A DNA stretch of 64,000 bases from the human T2T-CHM13v2.0 reference genome, Homo sapiens. Below are positions 35,791 through 49,346 of the stretch, one piece after another (positions within the stretch are counted from its first letter, which is position 1; every line of letters starts with the position of its first letter). Position numbers and translations under genes: made by a program. Under the pieces are notes generated by a model, which worked only from the letters and a program-made list of their open reading frames with translations, made no database searches and was not told the origin of the DNA. The stretch is from NCBI RefSeq assembly GCF_009914755.1, contig NC_060930.1; one strand, given 5' to 3'.

Positions 35791-35849
35791 AAGTTCCGTG
35801 TAGGAAGGCATGAGCATTTCTCTTCCTATCACAAGTGTCCATGCCATGG

Positions 35850-37159
35850 TGTGTCCGGAATTGGTGGGTTCTTGGTCTCACTGACTTCAAGAATGAAGCC
35901 GCGGACCCTCGCGGTGAGTGTTACAGCTCTTAAGGTGGCGAGTCTGGAGTTTGTTCCTTCTGATGTTGGGATGTGTTCGGAGTTTCTTCCTTCTGGTGGA
36001 TTCGTGGTCTCGCTGGCTCAGGAGTGAAGCTGCAGACCTTCGCGGTGAGTGTTACAGCTCTTAAAAGCAGTGTGGACCCAAAGAGTGAGCAGTAGCAAGA
36101 TTTATTGCAAAGAGCGAAATAACAAAGCTTCCACAGTGTGGAAGGGGACCCGAGCGGGTTACCACCGCTGACTAGGGCAGCCTGCTTTTATTCTCTTATC
36201 TGGCCCCACCCACATCCTGCTGATTGGTAGAGCTGAGTGGTCTGTTTTGACAGGGCGCTGATTGGTGCGTTTACAATCCCAGAGCTAGACACAAAGGTTC
36301 TCCACGTCCCCACCAGATTAGCTAGATACAGAGTGTGGACACAAAGGTTCTCCAAGGCCCCACCAGAGTAACTAGATACAGAGTGTCCATTGGTGCATTC
36401 ACAAACCCTGAGCTAGACACAGGGTGCTGACTGGTGTGTTTACAAACCTTGAGCTAGAGACAGAGTGCCGATTGGTGTATTTACAATCCCTGAGCAACAT
36501 AAAGGTTCTCCATTTCCCCACCAGACTCAGGAGCCCAGCTGGCTTCACCCAGTGGATCCCACACCGGGGCTGCAGGTGGAGCTGCCATGCGCCCGCACTC
36601 CTCAGCCCTTGGGTGGTCGATGGGACTGGGCTCCGTGGAGCAGGGGGTGGTGCTCATCCGGGAGGCTCAGGCCGCACAGGAGCCCAGGGAGGGGGTGGGA
36701 GCCTCAGGCATGGCGGGCTGCAGGTCCTGAGCCCTTCCCGGCGGGAAGGCAGCTAAGGCCCGGCGAGAAATCGAGCGCAGCGCCGGTGGGCTGGCACTGC
36801 TGGGGGACCCGGTTCACCCTCCGCAGCTGCTGGCCCGGGTGCTAAGCCCCTCATTGCCCGGGCCGGCAGGGCCGGCCGGCTGCTCTGAGTGCGGGGTCTG
36901 CCAAGCCCACGCCCACCCGGAATTCCAGCTGGCCCGCAAGTGCCGCGCGCAGCCCCAGTTCCCGCTCGCGCCTCTCCCTCCACACCTCCCTGCAAGCTGA
37001 GGGAGCTGGCTCTGGCCTTGGCCAGCCCAGAAAGGGGCTCCCACAGTGCAGTGGTGGGCTGAAGGGCTCCTCAAGTGCCACCAAAGTGGGAGCCCGGGCA
37101 GAGGAGGTGCCGAGAGCGAGCGAGGGCTGTGAGGACTGCCAGCACGCTGTCACCTCTCA
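35850..37159 (-). mobile_element. ERV9 LTR12 (LTR12C-like) solo LTR
   Basis: Minus-strand TGAGAGGTGACAGCGTGCTGGCAG start and TCCGGACACA end; repeated CCAAT-containing units; CpG-rich U3; 4-bp TSD ATGG at 35846-35849 and 37160-37163. Confidence 0.93.
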
Positions 37160-40056
37160 ATGGTACCTGGGCTAAAATAGACATTCAGGACCATGTTTTT
37201 GAACAGTTAGGAAAATGAGTGGATTTTCTGCATCAAATTTTCAGTAGTTCCCAGGAACAGTTAGCATAATGGGCCACAAGGGCATGCAGGGTGGTGAGTG
37301 GATGTGGTGGGGGCCGCCTGGATGACAGGCCTGGCCTGGGGCTCCTCATGGCCGGAAGTCAGCCTCCCTGTGTTAGCTCTGCCCGCAGGTCCTGGGCCTC
37401 ATCTCTGGATTTGTTTGGGAGGGCTGCCATAATAAAGTACCACAGACTAGGGGCTTCAACAACAGAAATGTATGTCTTCCAGTTCTGGAGGCTGGGAGTC
37501 CAACATCAAGGTGTTGGCAGGGTTGATTCCTTCTGAGACTGTGAGGGAGAATCTGTTCCAGGTTCCTAGGAGCACAGCGTTCCCCTTCTGACAGGCACAA
37601 AGCAGGAAACAGCCAACCCTGGGGGCCTGTTGAGGAGGACAGAAGCCTAGGACACACTGCGGGGCCCTGAGCACAGCCCCATGGGGAGGGGAGTGGCAGG
37701 AGCAGGAGTTTCCACCCCAGGCAGCTGCCCCCTCTGCACCTGGGACCATCGGGTGGGCAGCAGGCCCAGTGCCCAGTGACTGACTTGCTCATTCATGGCT
37801 GATTTTCTCACACATATGTGCTTCCCCAGACCTCCATCATGGCCCTTGGGGCCAGGACTGGTCTGCCCTGTGTGCTGACAGCCACTTCACTGGCAGGTAC
37901 CTGGATTCATGTACAAATCTGGGCCTAAACCCAGCTCTTGCCTTCTCTCTGTTTCCAGGTGAGACCTGCCTCTGCTCCGGCTCTGGCAGCTGGCTTGATC
38001 CCCTTCTCCTCCCTGGCCTTAGGGGGCACTGAGACCTAGGACAGATGAGATGCCCACCTGGAGTTTGTGTCTAGTTGGACATTAGGTGAATAGGATTTCA
38101 GCATAGGGAGTTTTGGAAAATCAGTCCCTGGTGACAGGGCTTTGAGTGAGTTGATTTATTAAGACTTGACATAGAGCCAGGCATGTGATTCTGGGCAGAT
38201 GACTTGCCCCCTTAGGCCTTCGTTTCTCATTTCTCATCTGCAGTACGTGGGGGTGAGCAGTTCCATCAGATCAGGAGACGGGGCTCAGAAGGAGCCCGGC
38301 CTGCCATCCTAGATGCTCAGGATGGTGGCAACGGCTTGTTCTCAGTTGGCCGTGGCCCTCAGTCCCATCTCCCCTTTGCAATTTTGATTGCCTGGGATGT
38401 CTGGTCATCCCCTCATGGACCCAAACCATGGGGCTGGGAGACAGTGGAAAAGGAAGGATGCAGGGGTGGGTACAGGCTCCCTTGCTCCCTAGTCCAAGCC
38501 AAAGAAAGGAGGCCTGAGTCCATTGAGCACCCAGAGTTGGGGGCAGCTGCTTTCTCCATGAAACAGGTGAGCAGTGGCACCAGGCTTGGCCTGGACAGGC
38601 CACTGGGGAGGTGGTACCACAGAGGGGCCTGGTTTCTCCTCAAAGTGTGCTGAAAGTGGGCCCCTTGCACCCTGGCTGCTTCCCATCCACATGCAGGACA
38701 CTCGTGTCAGGGTTGTGGGCACAACAGGGCCAGCACTGAGTGTGCGCCACCACCTTCCTCTGGGCTGGGGAGTGTCTGCCTCTGGCCCACCTCCCTCCTG
38801 CCCAGGGCATGCTCAGCCTTCTGGGTGGCAGCCCCCTTGAGCCCTCTCTTGGCAGCAGCTGAGCATTTCCAAAGAAGAAAACCCCCCAGGAGTGGGAATT
38901 ATGGAGCTGCAGCCCCCAAGGTGGGGCATGCTTTTGACCAAATCAGCCAGTGGGTCTACTGGGCTTGAGGCTCAGCTGAGAGTCTCAGAAATCCAGAGTA
39001 TGCCTGACACCATGGGCCTCTGTTTATCTGTACTTCTATGTGCATGTGGAGGGGCTCACCCCCAATGCCACATGCACTCCTAGGTCTGAAAATGGGGGAG
39101 GGATGGGGTGTTTTCCACCTTGCGCCACTTTGATGCCTTCCATCAGCAACTCTGAGCCAGAGCCTACTGGGGCATTACCCCTGTGCAGAGGTAACTCCCT
39201 GGCCCAGGTTCCCTAGGAACTTGGGCTATTGCACCATCAGCGAGGAGTCTGCCCAGGGGAGGGGAGGCAGTGAGTGGCACCTGTAGGAGCTCGGGTAGGT
39301 TCTGGAGAGCACAGCCATCTGGGTCATTGACAAGGTGCAGGCAATGGGCCTGCTGGAGAGTGCTGGGCTGCTCAGTGTGGGGCAGGGAGGAGCCCTGCAG
39401 CTGCTCTGGGATTCCCAGGAGCCTGAAGCTTTCTTGTCTGTTGCCGTGACACCATGTCACCACAAACTGAGCTGCGTAAAGCATGCACACTCCATGTCTC
39501 CTGGGCTCTGTGGTCAGGAGGGTAGCTGCAGGGCAGCTGGATGTTACATTCAAGGTGTTAGCTGCAGTGGTGGCCTCGTCTCAAGGCTCATCTGGAGAAA
39601 GATTTGATTTGGAGCTCAAGTGGATATCGGCAGGATTCATTCTGTCCCACTTCAGGACCAAGGGTCTTGGTTTCCCGCTGGTTGCCAGCTGAAGGTACCC
39701 ACAGCTCCTTGCCATGTGGGCCTCCACCACAGGGCCAGGGCTCCATCACAGCCAGCAGGGGAGAGAGACTCTCAGCCATGTGGATGTTACAATCTTAAGG
39801 AGCATGATCATGGAGGTGTCATCCGTGACACTTGCCATTTCCATTGGTTACAGGCAAGTCACAGGTTCTGCACACTCAGCTGAGAGGTGAGGATATGTGG
39901 GCCACTGGACAGCCAGTCTGCTACACCCTCTGGTCTTCTTTCTTGTCTCCTGCTCTTCCCTCCACCTTGTAAGGCACTTTTTGGATGGTAGGACTGGTTT
40001 TGGGGTCCTGTGGTGCCCCATGCCTGCTGCTGTCCCAGCTTTGGTGACTGTCTCTT

Positions 40057-41225
40057 TGTTACAGGACCTTTGAGGTGTCAATTTTCTGGCTGGAAACCTC
40101 TGTGGTCATGGTGCCTTTGCATGAGCTCTTGTCCTGCGTCCAGGAAGAATAAGGGACATAGACAAGTGAAGGGTGAGCAAGACGAAGATGAGCTCTATTG
40201 AGTGTTACAACAGCTCAGAGGACACCTGCATTGGGTAGCTCCTCTTCTAGGCAGGTCATCTGTCGAGTGTTCAGTTCTCAGTAGAGAGGAGGCCCAGGAG
40301 AGGTAGCTCCTCTCTGCAACTGGTCATCCTGATGTTTGCAGCTCTCAGCAGAGAGGAAGCCCTGGAGAGGGTGGTTCCTCTCTGCCAGCAGGTTGTCGCT
40401 GCAGCTATCAGCAGAGAATGTGGCTCCTCTCTGTGGGTTGTCCCATCATCTCCAGCTATCGGCAGAGAGGGTACTCCTTTCTGCAGCTGGTTGTCCCATC
40501 ATCTCTCTGCCCTCTTCATCCTCTAGCTATCCTCTGCCCTGCTCTGGCTGAGTCCAGGGCTTTTATGGACCTCAGAAGGGAGGAAGTGCATGCCAGTTGT
40601 TCTGTGGGTGGCCATGGGTGGGTTAGGAAGAGGCACCACAAGTCCCCACTCTGGTTTCCGGGACTGGCAGCCCAGGCCCCAGCCTTCAGGCCCTTCTTGG
40701 CCTGAAGGTGGGCCTTACTAGGGACACACCTCCTTCTTCCCAGGACTCTGTCTGCCTCCTGCTGCCATTCATGGCCCCAGGTCTCAACCCCAACCCTGCT
40801 CTGAGATCGGAGCAGGTGCTGGGATGGGAGAGGGGCCAGGCAGTGGGAGCAGACTCTTCTGAGCCTGGGATGGGGACTAGTGGGGAGGCCTTCCCAGGCC
40901 CCTGAGGTTGCAGGCTGCAGAGATGCCCAGGTCTTGTGCCTGGGAGGGCAGCCACAGCTGCATCCACGGAACTCCCACCCTGCCAACTCAGAAGGGGTGG
41001 GGTTCCTGCTTGTCCCTGGCTCCTGCCTGCTCTGTGGAGTGAGAGGCCCAGGTCTGCAGCCACAGGTCAGGTGGTTGCAGCTGCATCCAGGCAGGCAGAT
41101 CTGGCCTGCTGCTGGCCCCCTCCAAGAGCACAAGGAGGCTTGGATCCACAGTCCCAGGAGGGTGGGGCTTCCATCAGCTCCGTGGAGTGTTCAGCCCCAG
41201 CCACGCCTCCCTGCTGCTGCCATCA
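40057..41225 (-). mobile_element. MER52-type ERV1 LTR (3' LTR of a truncated provirus)
   Basis: Minus-strand TGATGGCAGCAGC start, TGTAACA end; preceded on the minus strand by polypurine tract AGAGGGGGAAA (41226-41236). Confidence 0.8.
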
Positions 41226-43420
41226 TTTCCCCCTCTGAAGAGGTACACCTAACTGCTGTTAGGGTAGGGACAATGACCACTCTTAACTGCTTCGTGCTGA
41301 CCAGGGATATTGTTTTGGGAAAACAACAGTCAAGTCTCTCTCAGAGACCTATCTAAGAATATCCAGTACAAGGCAGCCATCATCTGAGGCTCCATTTTCA
41401 TGACCATTTGGAGTTTAACGGCCCATCCCTTGTTTCTTCTGAGCTGTAGTCAGATATCACTAGTTGGTTCACCTTCACAATTGTCAAAAGCTACAAATAG
41501 CTCAAAAGAAAAGCTTCCTTGATTCTGAAAAACAAGATAAAGGATCAACAGTATTCCAAGCAAAAGGTCAAAACAAGATTGCTTCAGTCTTCTATTAGTT
41601 CAGCTCACCCAGTCAACTCCTATTCACAATCTCCAAAATTATCAGAAATCTGCATTTGAAGACTATAATCCATCCCTTGAAGAGGATCAAAACATGACAA
41701 CAATTGTCTGTGAATGTCAAAATGTCCTAGCGTATTCATAGTCAAAAACACAATTGATGAAGAAATCTGGTCACCTCTGTGATTTACAATAACCTAACAC
41801 AATAACCCTAGCTATGATTGATAACACAAACTCAGGCATCAGAAATCTAGAAATCCCATACAATTTTGAAACACACATTAACATTTTTCACTAAAATATA
41901 ACCTGAAGATCAAACACCTTATTTTGGTAATCCTATGTAACTAAACTTGTCAAATAACCCTGTTTACCTCTCCCTTTCGATGCTCCAGGTGTCTTCTGTA
42001 GCATCCAAAACTCAGGGGTTAGGAAAGAAAATTTTGAAGCTGTAAAGGCTCAAAACACTTAACAGAATTTTTGGTTACTATAAGTCATTCATTTAAATGA
42101 CTCAAAGCAAAAACCTTCAGTCACTAAGAGGGAAGACCTAATTTTCCAAACAATCTAACTTTTAACCATCGCACTCCTTTTTAAGAAGTCCTTTTAAGTC
42201 TCTTATTATCCAACTTTAGCCATGCCAAATGGCCAATTGAATTCATGGAGGGGCAGAGAATATAGTGATTTTTTTATTGTTCCTGCAACCAGTTTGCACA
42301 GAGAGAGAAACCAAAAGTCTGACTGGTAAGAACTTTTACCCTTTCGCCAGCATGTCAGGCTGCTGAGCTCCCTTCCCCTCAGCTATGGAGCCCTATTGAC
42401 CCTGGAGTCCTGTTGATCTCTTGTCCTTCCCTTCTTGTGTCAGTAGCTTATTCACAAAGAAAACAAAATCTTTCATTGCATGAAAATCTTGTTCAAGTGA
42501 AAGCCAAATTTTACCCTTACATTAGTCTATTAATGTCAACCCCAATTAAAAAAAATAAAACCTTACAGAGAAATCCATCCAATCTTAATCAGTTTGATCA
42601 TGAACTGAGATTGTTATAAATCTTTTATAACCTTTTACAAATTTTTTTTGTTAAACAGCATGTAAGTGCTTCAAGAAAACCTTGTTGTGCTTGTATTCCA
42701 TTGTTCAACTTATGGAAAACCAAATAATATCCTTTTTAGTGTAGTCAATATGTTTACACACAGGATTCCTTTTACAAGATTAATTTTTTACAAACCTTCC
42801 ATAACTTGTTTGAACCTTAAGCTTTATCTTATATAATTTAAAACAATCATTTAACCCTCTGAACTAGGCAAAAATTTACATTCCCATGCCTTCTTATATT
42901 ATTTTACTAATGATACATTTTACTCTCCTTACTCACCTCACGTGTAGATCTGTTTTCAGTAGTCATCACTACATGTTATAATGGTAGCTCTTAGTAATTG
43001 TTAATTTTGGTGAAATACCCAGTAAGTTATTTTAGTTACGTACTTAGGTGCAGATGAGGTCTAACTATTTCCAGCATAGCTAGGGCAGGCCCTACCAAAC
43101 TGCAAAGCAGGAAAGTTGAACAATTTTCAAAAGCCAAAGCAGTTTATGACCTTAAAGCATTTAGTCAACCTAGTTTCTGACTTGCATAATTTAGACCATG
43201 TCTATATTTTGAAGACATTTCTATTTTCATTTTACTGATAATTTAAAAGACAGCCTATTTAGCAAAGTCATACTTAAGTGAATTTGAAAATTGCTTAGAC
43301 TTATTTACTTAATTTATGAACACTCTTTTACTTATAAGCCAATTTGGTAGACACAACATATAACAGTAAGTGTACATACAAGTAAACACATCTAGACATG
43401 TATACACACACACAAATGAA
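41226..43420 (-). mobile_element. ERV1 (MER4-group/MER52-int-like) internal sequence reaching to ~0.5 kb upstream of the SLC22A1 TSS
   Basis: Contiguous with PPT and LTR; motifs recalled from MER4-group internals (AAGTCTGACTGGTAAGAA.TTTTACCCTT; TTTATGACCTTAAAGCATTTAG); upstream boundary approximate. Confidence 0.7.
42389..42419 (-). promoter_or_regulatory. Two adjacent DR-2 nuclear-receptor elements (HNF4A response elements of SLC22A1)
   Basis: Minus strand GGGTCA-at-AGGGCT (42389-42402) and AGATCA-ac-AGGACT (42406-42419), ~1.64 kb upstream of the ATG, matching the recalled position of the OCT1 HNF4A DR-2 pair. Confidence 0.7.
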
Positions 43421-43439
43421 GAGGTGGAGCTTAAAACAC

Positions 43440-43576
43440 CCAAATTGGGTGCAGTGTATACTGCTTGGGAGATGGATGCACCAAAATCTCACAAATCACC
43501 ACTAAAGAACCTGCTCATGTAACCAAATAATACCTGTTCCCTCAAAACCTATGGGAAAAAAAAACTAAAAAAAATA
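43440..43576 (+). mobile_element. L1PB-like 3' end fragment with A tail
   Basis: CACCAAAATCTCACAAATCACCACTAAAGAAC...A-rich tail. Confidence 0.75.
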
Positions 43577-43830
43577 CTTAAATGGTATCACAGAACTAAT
43601 TAGCCGAATACAGTATCTAGTACCTGGCTGTCACCCAATACTTGCCTCATACCATCACATCTAGAAAACAAGTAGATATTCTTTTTGGAAGAGCCCTGAG
43701 GGAGCTACTAGGAGGTTTGCACGGCCTGCTCTCCTGCCCTCTTCTTGCTCTGTGGCTGAACTTCAATTCTCTTCGGGCTTAGACCCCACTGACTCGCTCC
43801 CGGGCAAAGCAAACGATTTGATCAGATGGC

Positions 43831-43836
43831 CACGTG
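43831..43836. promoter_or_regulatory. E-box CACGTG in SLC22A1 core promoter (USF1/2 type)
   Basis: Perfect CACGTG 200 bp upstream of the ATG; matches the recalled OCT1 USF site. Confidence 0.8.
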
Positions 43837-44024
43837 CATTCTTCCTTTTCCTGAAACCAGCACCATAGGGTAAAAGATTATTTCTACTTGGTTGCCTTCC
43901 AGATGTTTCACACTTGGACAGCAAACTGATTTCAAACCACTCCTTTTCAAAGATCTCTGAGGGAGACATTGCACCTGGCCACTGCAGCCCAGAGCAGGTC
44001 TGGCCACGGCCATGAGCATGCTGA

Positions 44025-44456
<432 letters not shown>

Positions 44457-46312
44457 TAACATGGGAGTTCCTGGGACAGGGAGAAATATAAAGCAAATCC
44501 TATGAAGTTCAGTTCCATATCAGGAAAGAGGTAGGGGGCTATGTTTATTGTGCAGTTCGTGGGTGTCTGGCTGTGTCCCAGGCACGGGGCATTCTCTTCT
44601 CTAGTTTAATCCACCACAAACTCTGGGTCTTTGAGGAGGAAGCTGAGGCAGGAGAGAACAGCTAGCACAAGTGGGGGGCCAGGTTGCCAGGTTGCTTGAA
44701 TGGGAGTTGACTGGGAGACCAGGAGCCTCTCTGCCTGCCCCACTGGCTTCTCCCAGAACTATCAACTTGCTCTGGGTCCCGCTTCCCCACCAATAGTACT
44801 GTGGGCCCCCTCCTTCTGCTCAAGAGTGATGACGATTGACCTCAATGATGGTGTTGAGGTGGCCTGGAATTGCCCTGGCTTGGAAGTGAGAATATTTGGT
44901 GGAATCCCAGCTGTGCCCCTTATTAGCTGAGCATCACTGGGTAAGTCACTGCCTCTCTAAGCCTCATTTCCTCATCAGTCAACCAGGGATGATGACAGCT
45001 GCCTCATAGGGGTGTGAGCTTCAGCTGGGATCTGTGAAAGCACTGAGCAAATCCAAACTGAGTCACACCGTGCAGTCCGATGGGGCCCATGGGATAGGGC
45101 GATGGCCTCAAAAGGGCCTTGCTTGAGTAGTTTACTTGGTTATTTGAGCATTTTGCTTTGAGAATCCTTTAGTAAAAAGTGTCACCACATTTTTTTCCCA
45201 TCATGAGCCCTTTTGAAACTATTGCACGGTAACAAGTGTGGATGCTTGGTGGGTTGGAGAAGCTGTGGGCCAAAGCCCGTCAGGGGCCTTCTGTTAGTAA
45301 CGAGCAGTGGCGTGGTTTTGGTGCAGGCACTGCTTCCCTGAAATAAGAGGTAACTGGGCCCTCCCTGCCTCTGGTCCTGCCCACTTGTCTGCCCCCACTA
45401 CCCTCGCCCAAGCTCTCCGGACTTCTTGGGTCTCTGTTCTTCCTCTTTTCCCTTTCCTGAGTGGTATCAGCGGTGACACATTTAGGGCTATTACTGGAGG
45501 AAAGCTTAGGGTCCCTCCCCTCTGGGCCTGAGCATTGCTCTACCTGCTTGCCTGGAGCAGAGCAGGTGCCGGTGCAACTGGCTTTACGATGCTGAAGAGA
45601 CATCTTGTCTCCAAGGCATCCTCCAACAATGGATGACAAGTTAGGCAGCCCACCTTCCAGGGATCTCCAACCATCTGACATTCCCACTGGGAATCTAGAA
45701 GCAGACCAGGATGAGGATGTGTTTGCTCTCTGGGACTGAGACATACTCTGCTTTGAGGAGATCAGATGTGATCATTCCTCCAGTCAGACATCCACCCAGT
45801 ATGTTCGGCATACTCCCTCTATTCTGGCACTGGGTGTGATGCCGCAGGGGAGATGCAGAAGAAGATTGTGAGGTCCCTCAAGGAGTCTGCAGTCTTGTGG
45901 GGACTGAGAGGGGAAGAGGATGGCAAGAATGAGACCAGTGTTCGTTTAATGACAGCCCAAGGCCGCCTGTGGTGAATGCCATGAGCAGGGCGGAAAGGGA
46001 CTGGTGGGCTCTAAGAAGGTAGAGATCTCAGCTGCTGAGCTCTGAGCTGATCATAGACGTCTTCTGGGAGGAGGTGGCTTTGAGCTGAGCCTCAGCTGGT
46101 ATTTGGACCAGCAAGGAGAGGGGACAGGTGGAGTAGAGGGGAGGGGAAGTAGATCCCCAGACCAAGGGGAGAGCTTGAGCCTAGGCTCAGGGCCCAGGGA
46201 GTGTTTGCTGCATTCAGGGTGCAAGGAGCACTGATATGAGGGTCATGATATGAGGAGTTGTGGGGAGAACACTGGTGTCTAACCTTGGGGCCAGAACACG
46301 GAGTGCTTAGTG

Positions 46313-46550
46313 TGGGGTTGCCAGGTACAATACAGGATGCCCAGTTAAACTCGAACATTTGAACTTCAGATAATCCAACTGGATAGGATACTTACTTCCC
46401 AGATACTGCATGATATTTGGTACTGATAACTGAGACTGGAAATGCAAATATTGCATGAACATACTTATCCTAAAAAAAAAAAAGTTGTTTATCTGAAATT
46501 CAAATTTACCTGGGCATTCTGTATTTTTATTTGTGAACCCTGGCAACGCT
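46313..46550. mobile_element. MER53-like palindromic hAT MITE
   Basis: Inverted ends GGGTTGCCAG / CTGGCAACGCT and internal self-complementarity (CCCAGTTAAA...TTTACCTGGG). Confidence 0.75.
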
Positions 46551-47455
46551 ACCTTAGTGCCCAACAAAGGAGTTTGGGTCTTATTTAGGCAGGCAAGCAA
46601 GGTGACCCTAGCTGGACTCGTGAATGGGTGGGAAGGGGCGGTGGTGGGATTGGAGGCTTCAGGAGAGGTAGAGAGATGCATGAGGAGGCCAAGAGTGAGC
46701 CCCGGTAAGAAGTGTTGGCCAACATGGTTGTCATGGGAATGAAGGGAAGACAAGATGTAAGAGATGCCAGCATTGTCAGGGCTGGGGAGAAGGAGGCCCA
46801 GCTTGGCGGAGGGCTCTGGCTTGGGGGGTATAGGCAAATGGAGCTTCTGAACGCTGAACTGGGAGCCTTGGAGAGGCAGCCATGTGGGCAGGTAGAGGGG
46901 CCTGGTAAGAGGGGACCTTGGGGTGCAGCAGAAGTGGGGAGGCTGGGACAGAGAGGGGCCCGAGAGTGCTTTAGAACAGCTTGCCTGTCCGTGGCAGCTG
47001 TGGAGGGGGCTTCCAATAACCCCAAGATGTAGAGCCCTGGGGAGGATTGTGGGAATCCTGGAACTCTGATGGGCAGAGATGGTGAAGAGGATATGGTTTG
47101 TATTGTACCTGGCAACCCCACACTAAGCACTCCATGTTCTTTTGGGGTCGTGGTAAGTTGGGAGGGTGGTGGGATTCATGTGGAGATTTTCCAAGGTGAT
47201 TGGAAGCCTGGGGGTAGGTGGGAGGGTGATAGAAACTGGCTCGTGGGTAAGAATTGTCTCCCACTTTAACCCCAACTTCCTTGGCCCCAGCTCCTCCTCC
47301 AAAACTGAAAATTATTGTTGGGGAATCAATCTTAGTTATTCATTTCTGCAGAACTAATTTTTAACCTAGCATTGCCTTGGACATTGGAACTTGCTTTAGG
47401 AGGGAAGGTGAGCTAATCTGTTCGAACGCCAAGTTTAACTCCCACTGCAAGGCTA

Positions 47456-49346
47456 GGTGCTAAGATCATGAGGTCCACTCGGGGGGGATGTGGGCATTTT
47501 CCTGGCTTTTGACTCTCCCAACAAGAGGATCTCCTCTGGTGCTAAGATCATGAGGTCCACTCGGGGGGGATGTGGGCATTTTCCTGACTTTTGACTCTTC
47601 CCAACAAGAGGATCTCCTCTGGTGCTAAGATCATGAGGTCCACTCAGGGAGGGATGTGGGCATTTTCCTGGCTTTTGACTCTCCCAACAAGAGGATCTCC
47701 TCTGGTGCTAAGATCATGAGGTCCACTCGGGGGGGATGTGGGCATTTTCCTGGCTTTTGACTCTCCCAACAAGAGGATCTCCTCTGGTGCTAAGATCACG
47801 AGGTCCACTCGGGGGGGATGTGGGCATTTTCCTGGCTTTTGACTCTCCCAACAAGAGGATCTCCTCTGGTGCTAAGATCATGAGGTCCACTCGGGGAGGA
47901 TGTGGGCATTTTCCTGGCTTTTGACTCTCCCAACAAGAGGATCTCCTCTTCTGCTAAGATCATGAGGTCCACTCGGGGGGGATGTGGGCATTTTCCTGGC
48001 TTTTGACTCTCCCAACAAGAGGATCTCCTCTGGTGCTAAGATCATGAGGTCCACTCGGGGGGGATGTGGGCATTTTCCTGGCTTTTGACTCTCCCAACAA
48101 GAGGATCTCCTCTTCTGCTAAGATCACGAGGTCCACTCGGGGGGGATGTGGGCATTTTCCTGGCTTTTGACTCTCCCAACAAGAGGATCTCCTCTGGTGC
48201 TAAGATCACGAGGTCCACTCGGGGGAGATGTGGGCATTTTCCTGGCTTTTGACTCTCCCAACAAGAGGATCTCCTCTGGTGCTAAGATCATGAGGTCCAC
48301 TCGGGGGGGGATGTGGGCATTTTCCTGGCTTTTGACTCTCCCAACAAGAGGATCTCCTCTGGTGCTAAGATCATGAGGTCCACTCGGGGGGGATTTGGGC
48401 ATTTTCCTGGCTTTTGACTCTCCCAACAAGAGGATCTCTTCTGGTGCTAAGATCATGAGGTCCACTCGGGGGGTATGTGGGCATTTTCCTGGCTTTTGAC
48501 TCTCCCAACAAGAGGATCTCCTCTGGTGCTAAGATCACGAGGTCCACTTGGGGGGGATGTGGGCATTTTCCTGGCTTTTGACTCTCCCAACAAGAGGATC
48601 TCCTCTGCTGCTAAGATCATGAGGTCCACTCGGGGAGGGATGTGGGCATTTTCCTGGCTTTTGACTCTCCCAACAAGAGGATCTCCTCTGGTGCTAAGAT
48701 CATGAGGTCCACTCGGGGGGTATGTGGGCATTTTCCTGGCTTTTGACTCTCCCAACAAGAGGATCTCCTCTGGTGCTAAGATCATGAGGTCCACTCGGGG
48801 GGGATGTGGGCATTTTCCTGGCTTTTGACTCTCCCAACAAGAGGATCTCCTCTGGTGCTAAGATCATGAGGTCCACTGGGGAGGGATGTGGGCAGTTTCC
48901 TGGCTTTTGACTCTCCCAACAAGAGGATCTCCTGTGGTGCTAAGATCATGAGGTCCACTCGGGGGGGATGTGGGCATTTTCCTGGCTTTTGACTCTCCCA
49001 ACAAGAGGATCTCCTCTGGTGCTAAGATCATGAGGTCCACTCGGGAGGGATGTGGGCATTTTCCTGGCTTTTGACTCTCCCAACAAGAGGATCTCCTCTG
49101 GTGCTAAGATCATGAGGTCCACTCAGGGAGGGATGTGGGCATTTTCCTGGCTTTTGACTCTCCCAACAAGAGGATCTCCTCTGGTGCTAAGATCATGAGG
49201 TCCACTGGGGAGGGATGTGGGCATTTTCCTGGCTTTTGACTCTCCCAACAAGAGGATCTCCTCTGGTGCTAAGATCATGAGGTCCACTCGGGGGGGATGT
49301 GGGCATTTTCCTGGCTTTTGACTCTCCCAACAAGAGGATCTCCTCT
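47456..49346. repeat. 82-bp VNTR, ~23 copies, SLC22A1 intron 1
   Basis: Unit GGTGCTAAGATCATGAGGTCCACTCGGGGGGGATGTGGGCATTTTCCTGGCTTTTGACTCTCCCAACAAGAGGATCTCCTCT; 1891 bp. Confidence 0.98.

What the first reader, a model, noticed from the sequence alone, without database searches (positions are those of the whole stretch)
41226..43420. The HNF4A-type DR-2 elements of human OCT1 lie inside endogenous retrovirus internal sequence
Seen: a DR-2 pair at 42389-42419 within sequence contiguous with a PPT and MER52-type LTR; only ~450 bp of non-repeat DNA precede the ATG. Recalled: HNF4A activates human OCT1 through two DR-2 sites at about this position, and human OCT1 is liver-dominant whereas rodent Oct1 is also strongly renal. 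Inference: primate-specific exaptation of ERV internal (non-LTR) DNA may contribute to the hepatic expression of a major metformin/morphine transporter.
Basis: partly seen in the sequence, partly recalled or inferred. Interest (0 to 1): 0.75.

Follow-up and report, generated by a model that had tools for sequence, protein, structure and literature searches.

The report
Retroviral reshuffle built OCT1's HNF4A element
Two published binding sites for the liver factor HNF4A upstream of the human drug transporter OCT1 lie inside the broken remains of an old retrovirus; one is shared with other copies of that virus, and the other sits across a 260-base reshuffle found only in this copy, which likely created it.

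Summary
The core observation holds, with one coordinate fix. The published OCT1 (SLC22A1) double DR2, -1642 to -1604 from the ATG, maps to 42389-42427. Both sites lie in the non-coding internal part of an antisense, 5'-truncated ERV1 provirus of the PBS-Pro (HUERS-P/MER52) kind: LTR 40057-41225, PPT, internal DNA to 43422. Divergence suggests roughly 30-50 My (rate recalled). New here: the pair is a composite. A 260-bp block carrying site 1 (42157-42416) is out of family order. Site 1 is identical in 3 of 19 paralogs and one base off in 10. Site 2's first half-site spans the block's right junction. All 30 paralogs aligned there keep the uninterrupted join, and none scores as well. Both junctions are unique in the genome. 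The motifs alone are at chance level, so function rests on published EMSA and reporter work that I saw only second-hand. The idea that this explains liver-over-kidney expression is not supported: HNF4A is in the proximal tubule and occupies the rat Oct1 promoter. No ortholog or ChIP data could be tested.

The parts
40057..41225 (-). 3' LTR of an antisense provirus (1169 bp, TG...CA ends, GC-rich; TATA-like and degenerate poly(A) signals seen by eye); MER52/LTR28-like name recalled, not tested
   Evidence: (paralog matches start at 40056-40057; 1925 candidates, 40 scored)
41226..41236 (-). polypurine tract directly before the LTR
   Evidence: same arrangement in the chrX paralog
41226..42156 (-). 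internal segment A (3' end of the internal region, no coding remnant detected)
   Evidence: 0 of 3 frames hit Pfam
42157..42416 (-). internal segment C, 260 bp, out of family order: in paralogs it lies about 0.6-1.5 kb further toward the proviral 5' end, about 1.0-1.7 kb 3' of gag/protease remnants
   Evidence: both junctions unique
42389..42402 (+). DR2-1 (AGCCCT at TGACCC), published HNF4A site; shared with the ERV family
   Evidence: identical in 3 of 19 aligned paralogs, one base off in 10
42414..42427 (+). DR2-2 (TGATCT ct TGTCCT), published HNF4A site placed by coordinates; first half-site spans the C|B junction, second half-site is a subfamily variant of segment B
42417..43422 (-). internal segment B; proviral homology stops at 43422 (5' half with gag, PBS and 5' LTR absent here)
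   Evidence: chrX paralog continues for about 5 kb to a 5' LTR
43421..43585 (+). high-copy repeat with an A-rich tail abutting the broken end (L1 3' end by recall); no target-site duplication seen
43586..44030 (+). non-repeat proximal promoter and 5' UTR, with E-box CACGTG at 43831-43836 (-200 to -195)

Best explanation
The OCT1 double DR2 lies in the internal DNA of a truncated ERV1 provirus and is a composite: site 1 is shared with other copies of the family, and site 2 was likely created when a 260-bp internal block carrying site 1 was inserted out of order, a join found in no other copy. Shown: position, proviral anatomy, family order A-B...C against A-C-B here, uniqueness of both junctions, and the state of both sites in paralogs. 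Inferred: the insertion put site 1 11 bp from a half-site already present in segment B and supplied the first three bases of the other half-site. The likeliest route is a reverse-transcriptase jump out and back between co-packaged RNAs, because the return is to within one base of the departure point with 1-2 bases of microhomology (about 55%); host repair after integration is nearly as likely (about 40%). Loss of the proviral 5' half then left the pair 1.6 kb from the ATG and removed the PBS-Pro silencing target (inferred). From the literature: HNF4A binds the pair and raises OCT1 transcription as one input beside HNF1 and USF1/2. I put a real contribution at the native locus at about 55%.
For: Coordinates and probe. 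Every non-self match to 42150-42650 stops near 42413-42417. 30 of 30 aligned B-start copies are preceded by A-end sequence (14-22 of 25 matches) and not C-end sequence (5-10 of 25). Their first half-site has 2-5 mismatches (4 in 22 of 30) against 1 here, and none totals 2 or fewer. In 19 of 19 aligned C-end copies the second-site position has 7 or more mismatches. C|B 24-mer: self plus one 3-mismatch hit, control 1. A|C 26-mer: self only. 0 of 13 non-self matches cover both sides. Paralogs carry two LTRs, a PBS-Pro-like sequence, Gag_p30 and zinc-knuckle remnants. K2P 0.13-0.16 to the nearest internal copies (0.10 for one short match); 0.21-0.22 between the chrX copy's LTRs. HNF4A knockdown lowers OCT1 (PMC5045537; bioRxiv 10.64898/2026.06.15.732466, 30% of cortisol induction).
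Against: The motifs are at chance level in the window. A random join of this internal DNA gives a spanning DR2 of equal quality 1.6% of the time, so the site need not reflect selection. The placement of site 2 is deduced from published end coordinates; the original paper (PMID 16436500) was not held. Only 40 candidates per search are scored, so a second A-C-B copy diverged at both junctions could be missed. Both Gag_p30 hits are below Pfam's cut-off, and only 3 of 33 frames hit anything. The donor of block C is unresolved (4 weak sites favour another subfamily, 1 the same; AU p 0.22). Knockdown data do not show that HNF4A acts through these sites. SNP -1620 between the sites has no effect.
Confidence: 0.8

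Rival explanations
1. Same origin, but the pair is a neutral by-product: it binds HNF4A in EMSA and on plasmids, while native hepatic OCT1 depends on the conserved intron-1 HNF1 enhancer, the E-box and other HNF4A sites.
For: Motif density at chance; HNF1 and USF1/2 inputs; HNF1A knockdown cuts OCT1 induction 35%, similar to HNF4A's 30%; HNF4A occupies rat Oct1, where these elements are reported absent; an NF-Y site in the same block works on SV40 but not on the native promoter.
Against: Reviews call the two elements functionally important and OCT1 tightly HNF4A-controlled. This rival concerns function, not origin, so it is compatible with the anatomy above.
Confidence: 0.4
2. The insertion is the cause of the primate shift to liver-dominant, kidney-poor OCT1.
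For: OCT1 is reported in rodent but not monkey or human kidney (PMC9398928); the estimated age fits a simian origin.
Against: HNF4A is present in the proximal tubule and on rat Oct1 in kidney, so gaining HNF4A sites should not remove renal expression. It could only work if the provirus also displaced a kidney element or silences the locus in kidney; untested.
Confidence: 0.12
3. Both DR2s were carried ready-made by a subfamily with the A-C-B order, or arose by point mutation after insertion, with no copy-specific rearrangement.
For: Searches score only the best 40 candidates; the second half-site of DR2-2 is indeed a subfamily variant (5 of 5 close copies).
Against: The closest copies that cover the point keep the A|B join; genome-wide pattern scans find neither junction elsewhere.
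Confidence: 0.07

Closest known systems
HNF4A double DR2 of human SLC22A1 (Saborowski 2006; seen through PMC6313513 and PMC7959823)
   Same: The same element, -1642 to -1604; already reported as not conserved in rodents.
   Different: No retroviral origin or composite build was found in the passages read or in searches.
HUERSP supergroup of class I ERVs (HUERS-P1-3, MER52, LTR25; PMC4724089, PMC5753468)
   Same: PBS-Pro-like site, gamma-type Gag p30 remnant, LTR divergence 21-22% inside the published 18-32% range.
   Different: This copy is 5'-truncated and internally rearranged; exact family name untested; no pol or env hit in the frames scanned.
ERV-derived tissue-specific regulatory elements such as BAAT/MER11A, APOC1/LTR2, CYP19A1/MER21A (listed in PMC4419796); B3GALT5 LTR bound by HNF1 and the AMY1 retroviral enhancer (recalled)
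   Same: Retroviral DNA supplying regulatory input to a neighbouring host gene.
   Different: Those are mostly LTR promoters or enhancers. Here the sites are internal DNA, in a provirus antisense to the gene, and one site spans a rearrangement junction.
Alu-borne DR2 retinoic acid elements (PMC1785376, search listing only)
   Same: Repeat-borne DR2 motifs spread in primates.
   Different: SINE, family-wide motif; not a copy-specific composite.

Membership tests
ERV1 provirus, HUERS-P/MER52 kind | LTR with TG...CA ends, dispersed copies, preceded by a PPT | tested here: met
ERV1 provirus, HUERS-P/MER52 kind | Internal region flanked by two LTRs in an intact relative | tested here: met
   G000:C23 91.625 and 91.632 Mb; the window copy has only the 3' LTR
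ERV1 provirus, HUERS-P/MER52 kind | PBS-Pro after the 5' LTR | tested here: met
   in 2 of 2 relatives examined, 8 of 9 bases match the nine given in PMC10602909; deleted in the window copy
ERV1 provirus, HUERS-P/MER52 kind | Gamma-type gag/pro remnants | tested here: inconclusive
   Gag_p30 E 6e-4 and 4e-3 (below cut-off), zinc knuckle E 4e-4, in 3 of 33 frames; protease-like motif by eye; 0 of 3 window frames
MER52 / MER52-int specifically | Best match to the Dfam or Repbase MER52 models rather than LTR27, LTR28 or HUERS-P2/P3 | not testable with these tools
   no repeat library held; name recalled
HNF4A DR2 response element | Two RGKTCA-like hexamers spaced by 2 | tested here: met
   2 mismatches each; not above chance
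HNF4A DR2 response element | HNF4A binding and activation | not testable with these tools
   reported in PMC6313513 and PMC7959823 citing the 2006 paper, which was not held
Exapted transposable-element regulatory site | Site lies in repeat-derived DNA younger than the lineage split | tested here: met
   rate recalled; no orthologs available
Exapted transposable-element regulatory site | Needed at the native locus, or under purifying selection | not testable with these tools
   no ortholog, ChIP or editing data

The most novel reading that the evidence does not exclude
A single copying error inside a retrovirus assembled a two-site HNF4A enhancer from parts about 2 kb apart, and this composite, brought next to the gene by loss of the provirus's 5' half, now supplies a major share of HNF4A-dependent OCT1 expression in simian liver, so that steroid and PXR control of human metformin and morphine uptake runs through a retroviral junction that rodents lack.
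Probability: 0.3. Interest if true: 0.75.

Novelty: new variant of a known kind. Interest (0 to 1): 0.5.

Why it matters
It gives a dated, base-level origin for a well-known pharmacogene element and explains why the element is missing in rodents. It shows a route to new binding sites, a junction inside ERV internal DNA, that family-level motif scans and LTR-centred screens would miss. It also makes sharp tests possible: primate orthologs can separate a viral from a host origin of the join, and natural paralogs with site 1 alone are ready controls for the need for two sites.

Tried and rejected
First idea of a simple internal deletion at 42413-42417: rejected, the order is A-C-B. Idea that C lies 7-8 kb away in full-length copies: in two of the three such copies the gap holds an L1 or a KRAB-zinc-finger retrocopy; the third (chr8) was not read across. 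LTR end first placed at 40077, with an apparent 4-base target-site duplication: dropped, the end is 40057. Donor of block C from another subfamily: inconclusive. HNF1 consensus scan did not find the intron-1 site (1 match, 1.03 expected). One search was uninformative because it allowed no mismatches and cannot match the window's own pair. No tRNA genes in the window. SLC22A1 not found in the searched supplements of PMC5630026 (4 files not searched). PMC4842917, PMID 16436500 and PMC3781413 were not held. Earlier scan findings were not available.

Full report
Position of the published element. The SLC22A1 ATG is at 44031. PMC6313513 (passages, figure legends and Table 1 seen) places a doubled DR2 at -1642 to -1604 from the ATG and SNP -1620T>C between the two elements. 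These map to 42389, 42427 and 42411, and the paper's EMSA probe equals window 42387-42429. Its E-box (-200 to -195) falls on CACGTG at 43831-43836, confirming the numbering. The sites are therefore 42389-42402 and, by deduction from the coordinates, 42414-42427. As sequence the motifs are unremarkable: 92 such matches in the window against 73.3 +/- 8.8 in shuffles, 23 of them from one VNTR. Their standing rests on published experiments.

What the DNA is. 41226-43422 has many dispersed relatives (2912 candidates, 40 scored, 112 matches at about 69-89% identity). On the minus strand it runs into a polypurine tract and a 1169-bp LTR at 41225-40057 with TG...CA ends. A relative on C23 has this LTR at both ends, 6.7 kb apart. 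There and in a C9 relative the 5' LTR is followed by a sequence matching 8 of the 9 PBS-Pro bases given in PMC10602909 (passages seen). Relatives show Gag_p30 (E 6e-4 and 4e-3, below cut-off) and zinc-knuckle (E 4e-4) remnants 5' of the region, in 3 of 33 frames scanned; the 3 window frames hit nothing. This fits the HUERSP supergroup, which includes MER52 (PMC4724089, PMC5753468; passages seen). The exact name is recalled and untested. The window copy ends at 43422 against a high-copy A-tailed repeat (43421-43585, L1 by recall), leaving about 445 bp before the ATG.

Age. K2P distances without CpG columns to the nearest copies are 0.13-0.16 for the internal segments (0.10 for one 172-column match) and 0.19-0.24 for the LTR. 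The C23 copy's two LTRs differ by 0.21-0.22 (approximate because small secondary alignments were included). At a recalled 2.2e-9 per site per year this gives about 30-50 My, a likely simian insertion. No ortholog could be examined. [quoted passage not shown]

The rearrangement. Every non-self match to 42150-42650 stops near 42413-42417. Mapping shows the family order A-B, with block C about 0.6-1.5 kb beyond B toward the proviral 5' end, whereas the window reads A-C-B. The loci fetched by then fall into 45 elements, two of which are a duplicate pair on C16. Of 35 elements with the start of B, 30 aligned and 5 did not; all 30 are preceded by A-end sequence (alignment of five). Of 28 with the end of C, 19 aligned across DR2-1 (one with a gap) and 9 did not. 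Genome-wide scans allowing 3 mismatches find the A|C junction only here, and the C|B junction here plus one 3-mismatch hit, matching the control count of 1. 0 of 13 non-self matches cover both sides. At most one base of the A|B join is lost, with 1-2 bases of microhomology at each end.

Origin of each site. DR2-1 lies wholly in C: identical in 3 of 19 copies, one base off in 10, and as good a DR2 in 9 of 19. The 21-mer around it has 2 exact and 7 one-mismatch matches elsewhere in the genome. DR2-2 is a hybrid. Its second half-site is segment B, in a variant shared by 5 of 5 close copies and not by 10 of 12 others (that group was defined from a tree including the window). Its first half-site takes three bases from C and three from B. 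At this place the 30 uninterrupted copies have 2-5 mismatches in the first half-site, against 1 here, and none totals 2 or fewer (lowest 3, in 3 of 30). In the 19 C-end copies the matching position has 7 or more. A random join would do this 1.6% of the time, so luck suffices and selection is not shown.

How it likely arose. An exact jump out and back suits reverse-transcriptase template switching between co-packaged RNAs (established retroviral behaviour, recalled; about 55%). Templated insertion during host repair, perhaps with the deletion of the 5' half, is the alternative (about 40%). Whether C came from the same subfamily as A and B is unresolved: 4 weak sites against, 1 for, AU p 0.22. 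By the C23 copy, about 5 kb including PBS and 5' LTR is missing. That would have moved the sites closer to the gene and removed a target that ZNF506 binds in this ERV group (PMC10602909); both consequences are inferred.

Function. HNF4A knockdown lowers OCT1 in human hepatocytes (PMC5045537, passages) and cuts cortisol induction by 30% in HepaRG, with HNF1A knockdown cutting it by 35% (bioRxiv 10.64898/2026.06.15.732466, passages; its supplements are closed and may bear on this). PMC5122737 (passages) calls OCT1 tightly HNF4A-controlled. None of this shows action through these sites at the native locus. Against the liver-versus-kidney inference, HNF4A is in the proximal tubule and occupies the rat Oct1 promoter (PMC3396597, passages), although renal OCT1 is reported absent in monkey and human (PMC9398928, passages).

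Novelty. The element and its absence in rodents are known. A link to retroviral DNA was not found: search 16 (2 papers with 3 of 4 terms; one read in passages, no SLC22A1; the other seen as a listing only), search 43 (20 of 298 listed; of the two naming SLC22A1, PMC4419796 ties it only to MLT1B in placenta; the other was not read), searches (0 papers). PMC12273786 and PMC7903485 (passages) added nothing on this locus. The three primary papers were not held, and any browser's repeat track probably already shows the overlap. The junction origin of site 2 is the part least likely to be on record. Verdict: real, a new variant of transposable-element-derived regulation, interest 0.5.

Noticed in passing
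window 47456-49346: SLC22A1 intron-1 VNTR, 82 bp x 23 copies at 96% match; each unit carries a 2-mismatch DR2 on the minus strand (23 hits). A possible copy-number-variable nuclear-receptor array.
   Followed up: no
window 42236: This assembly has the A allele of rs6935207 (-1795, NF-Y CCAAT box in PMC6313513), inside block C. 22 of the 24 paralogs aligned there (of 28) also have A, so the G allele is likely the derived one.
   Followed up: partly
window 35845-37164: A second LTR-like repeat with 41- and 50-bp tandem units and many CCAAT motifs, LTR12-like by recall, about 7 kb upstream of SLC22A1.
   Followed up: no
L034:1-1005 (-), G000:C9 near 35.168 Mb: A spliced KRAB zinc-finger retrocopy with a 335-aa open stretch inserted in a paralogous provirus.
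   Followed up: no
window 42387-42420: The DR2-1 stretch is followed by an imperfect 17-bp repeat of itself; its first part is also present in paralogs, and the C16 pair lacks one unit.
   Followed up: partly
L035:591-818, G000:C9 near 127.576 Mb: Another close paralog has its own rearrangement, with part of segment B inverted next to block C.
   Followed up: no
window 46293-46334 and 47099-47140: A 42-bp inverted repeat, 98% complementary, 764 bp apart in intron 1.
   Followed up: no
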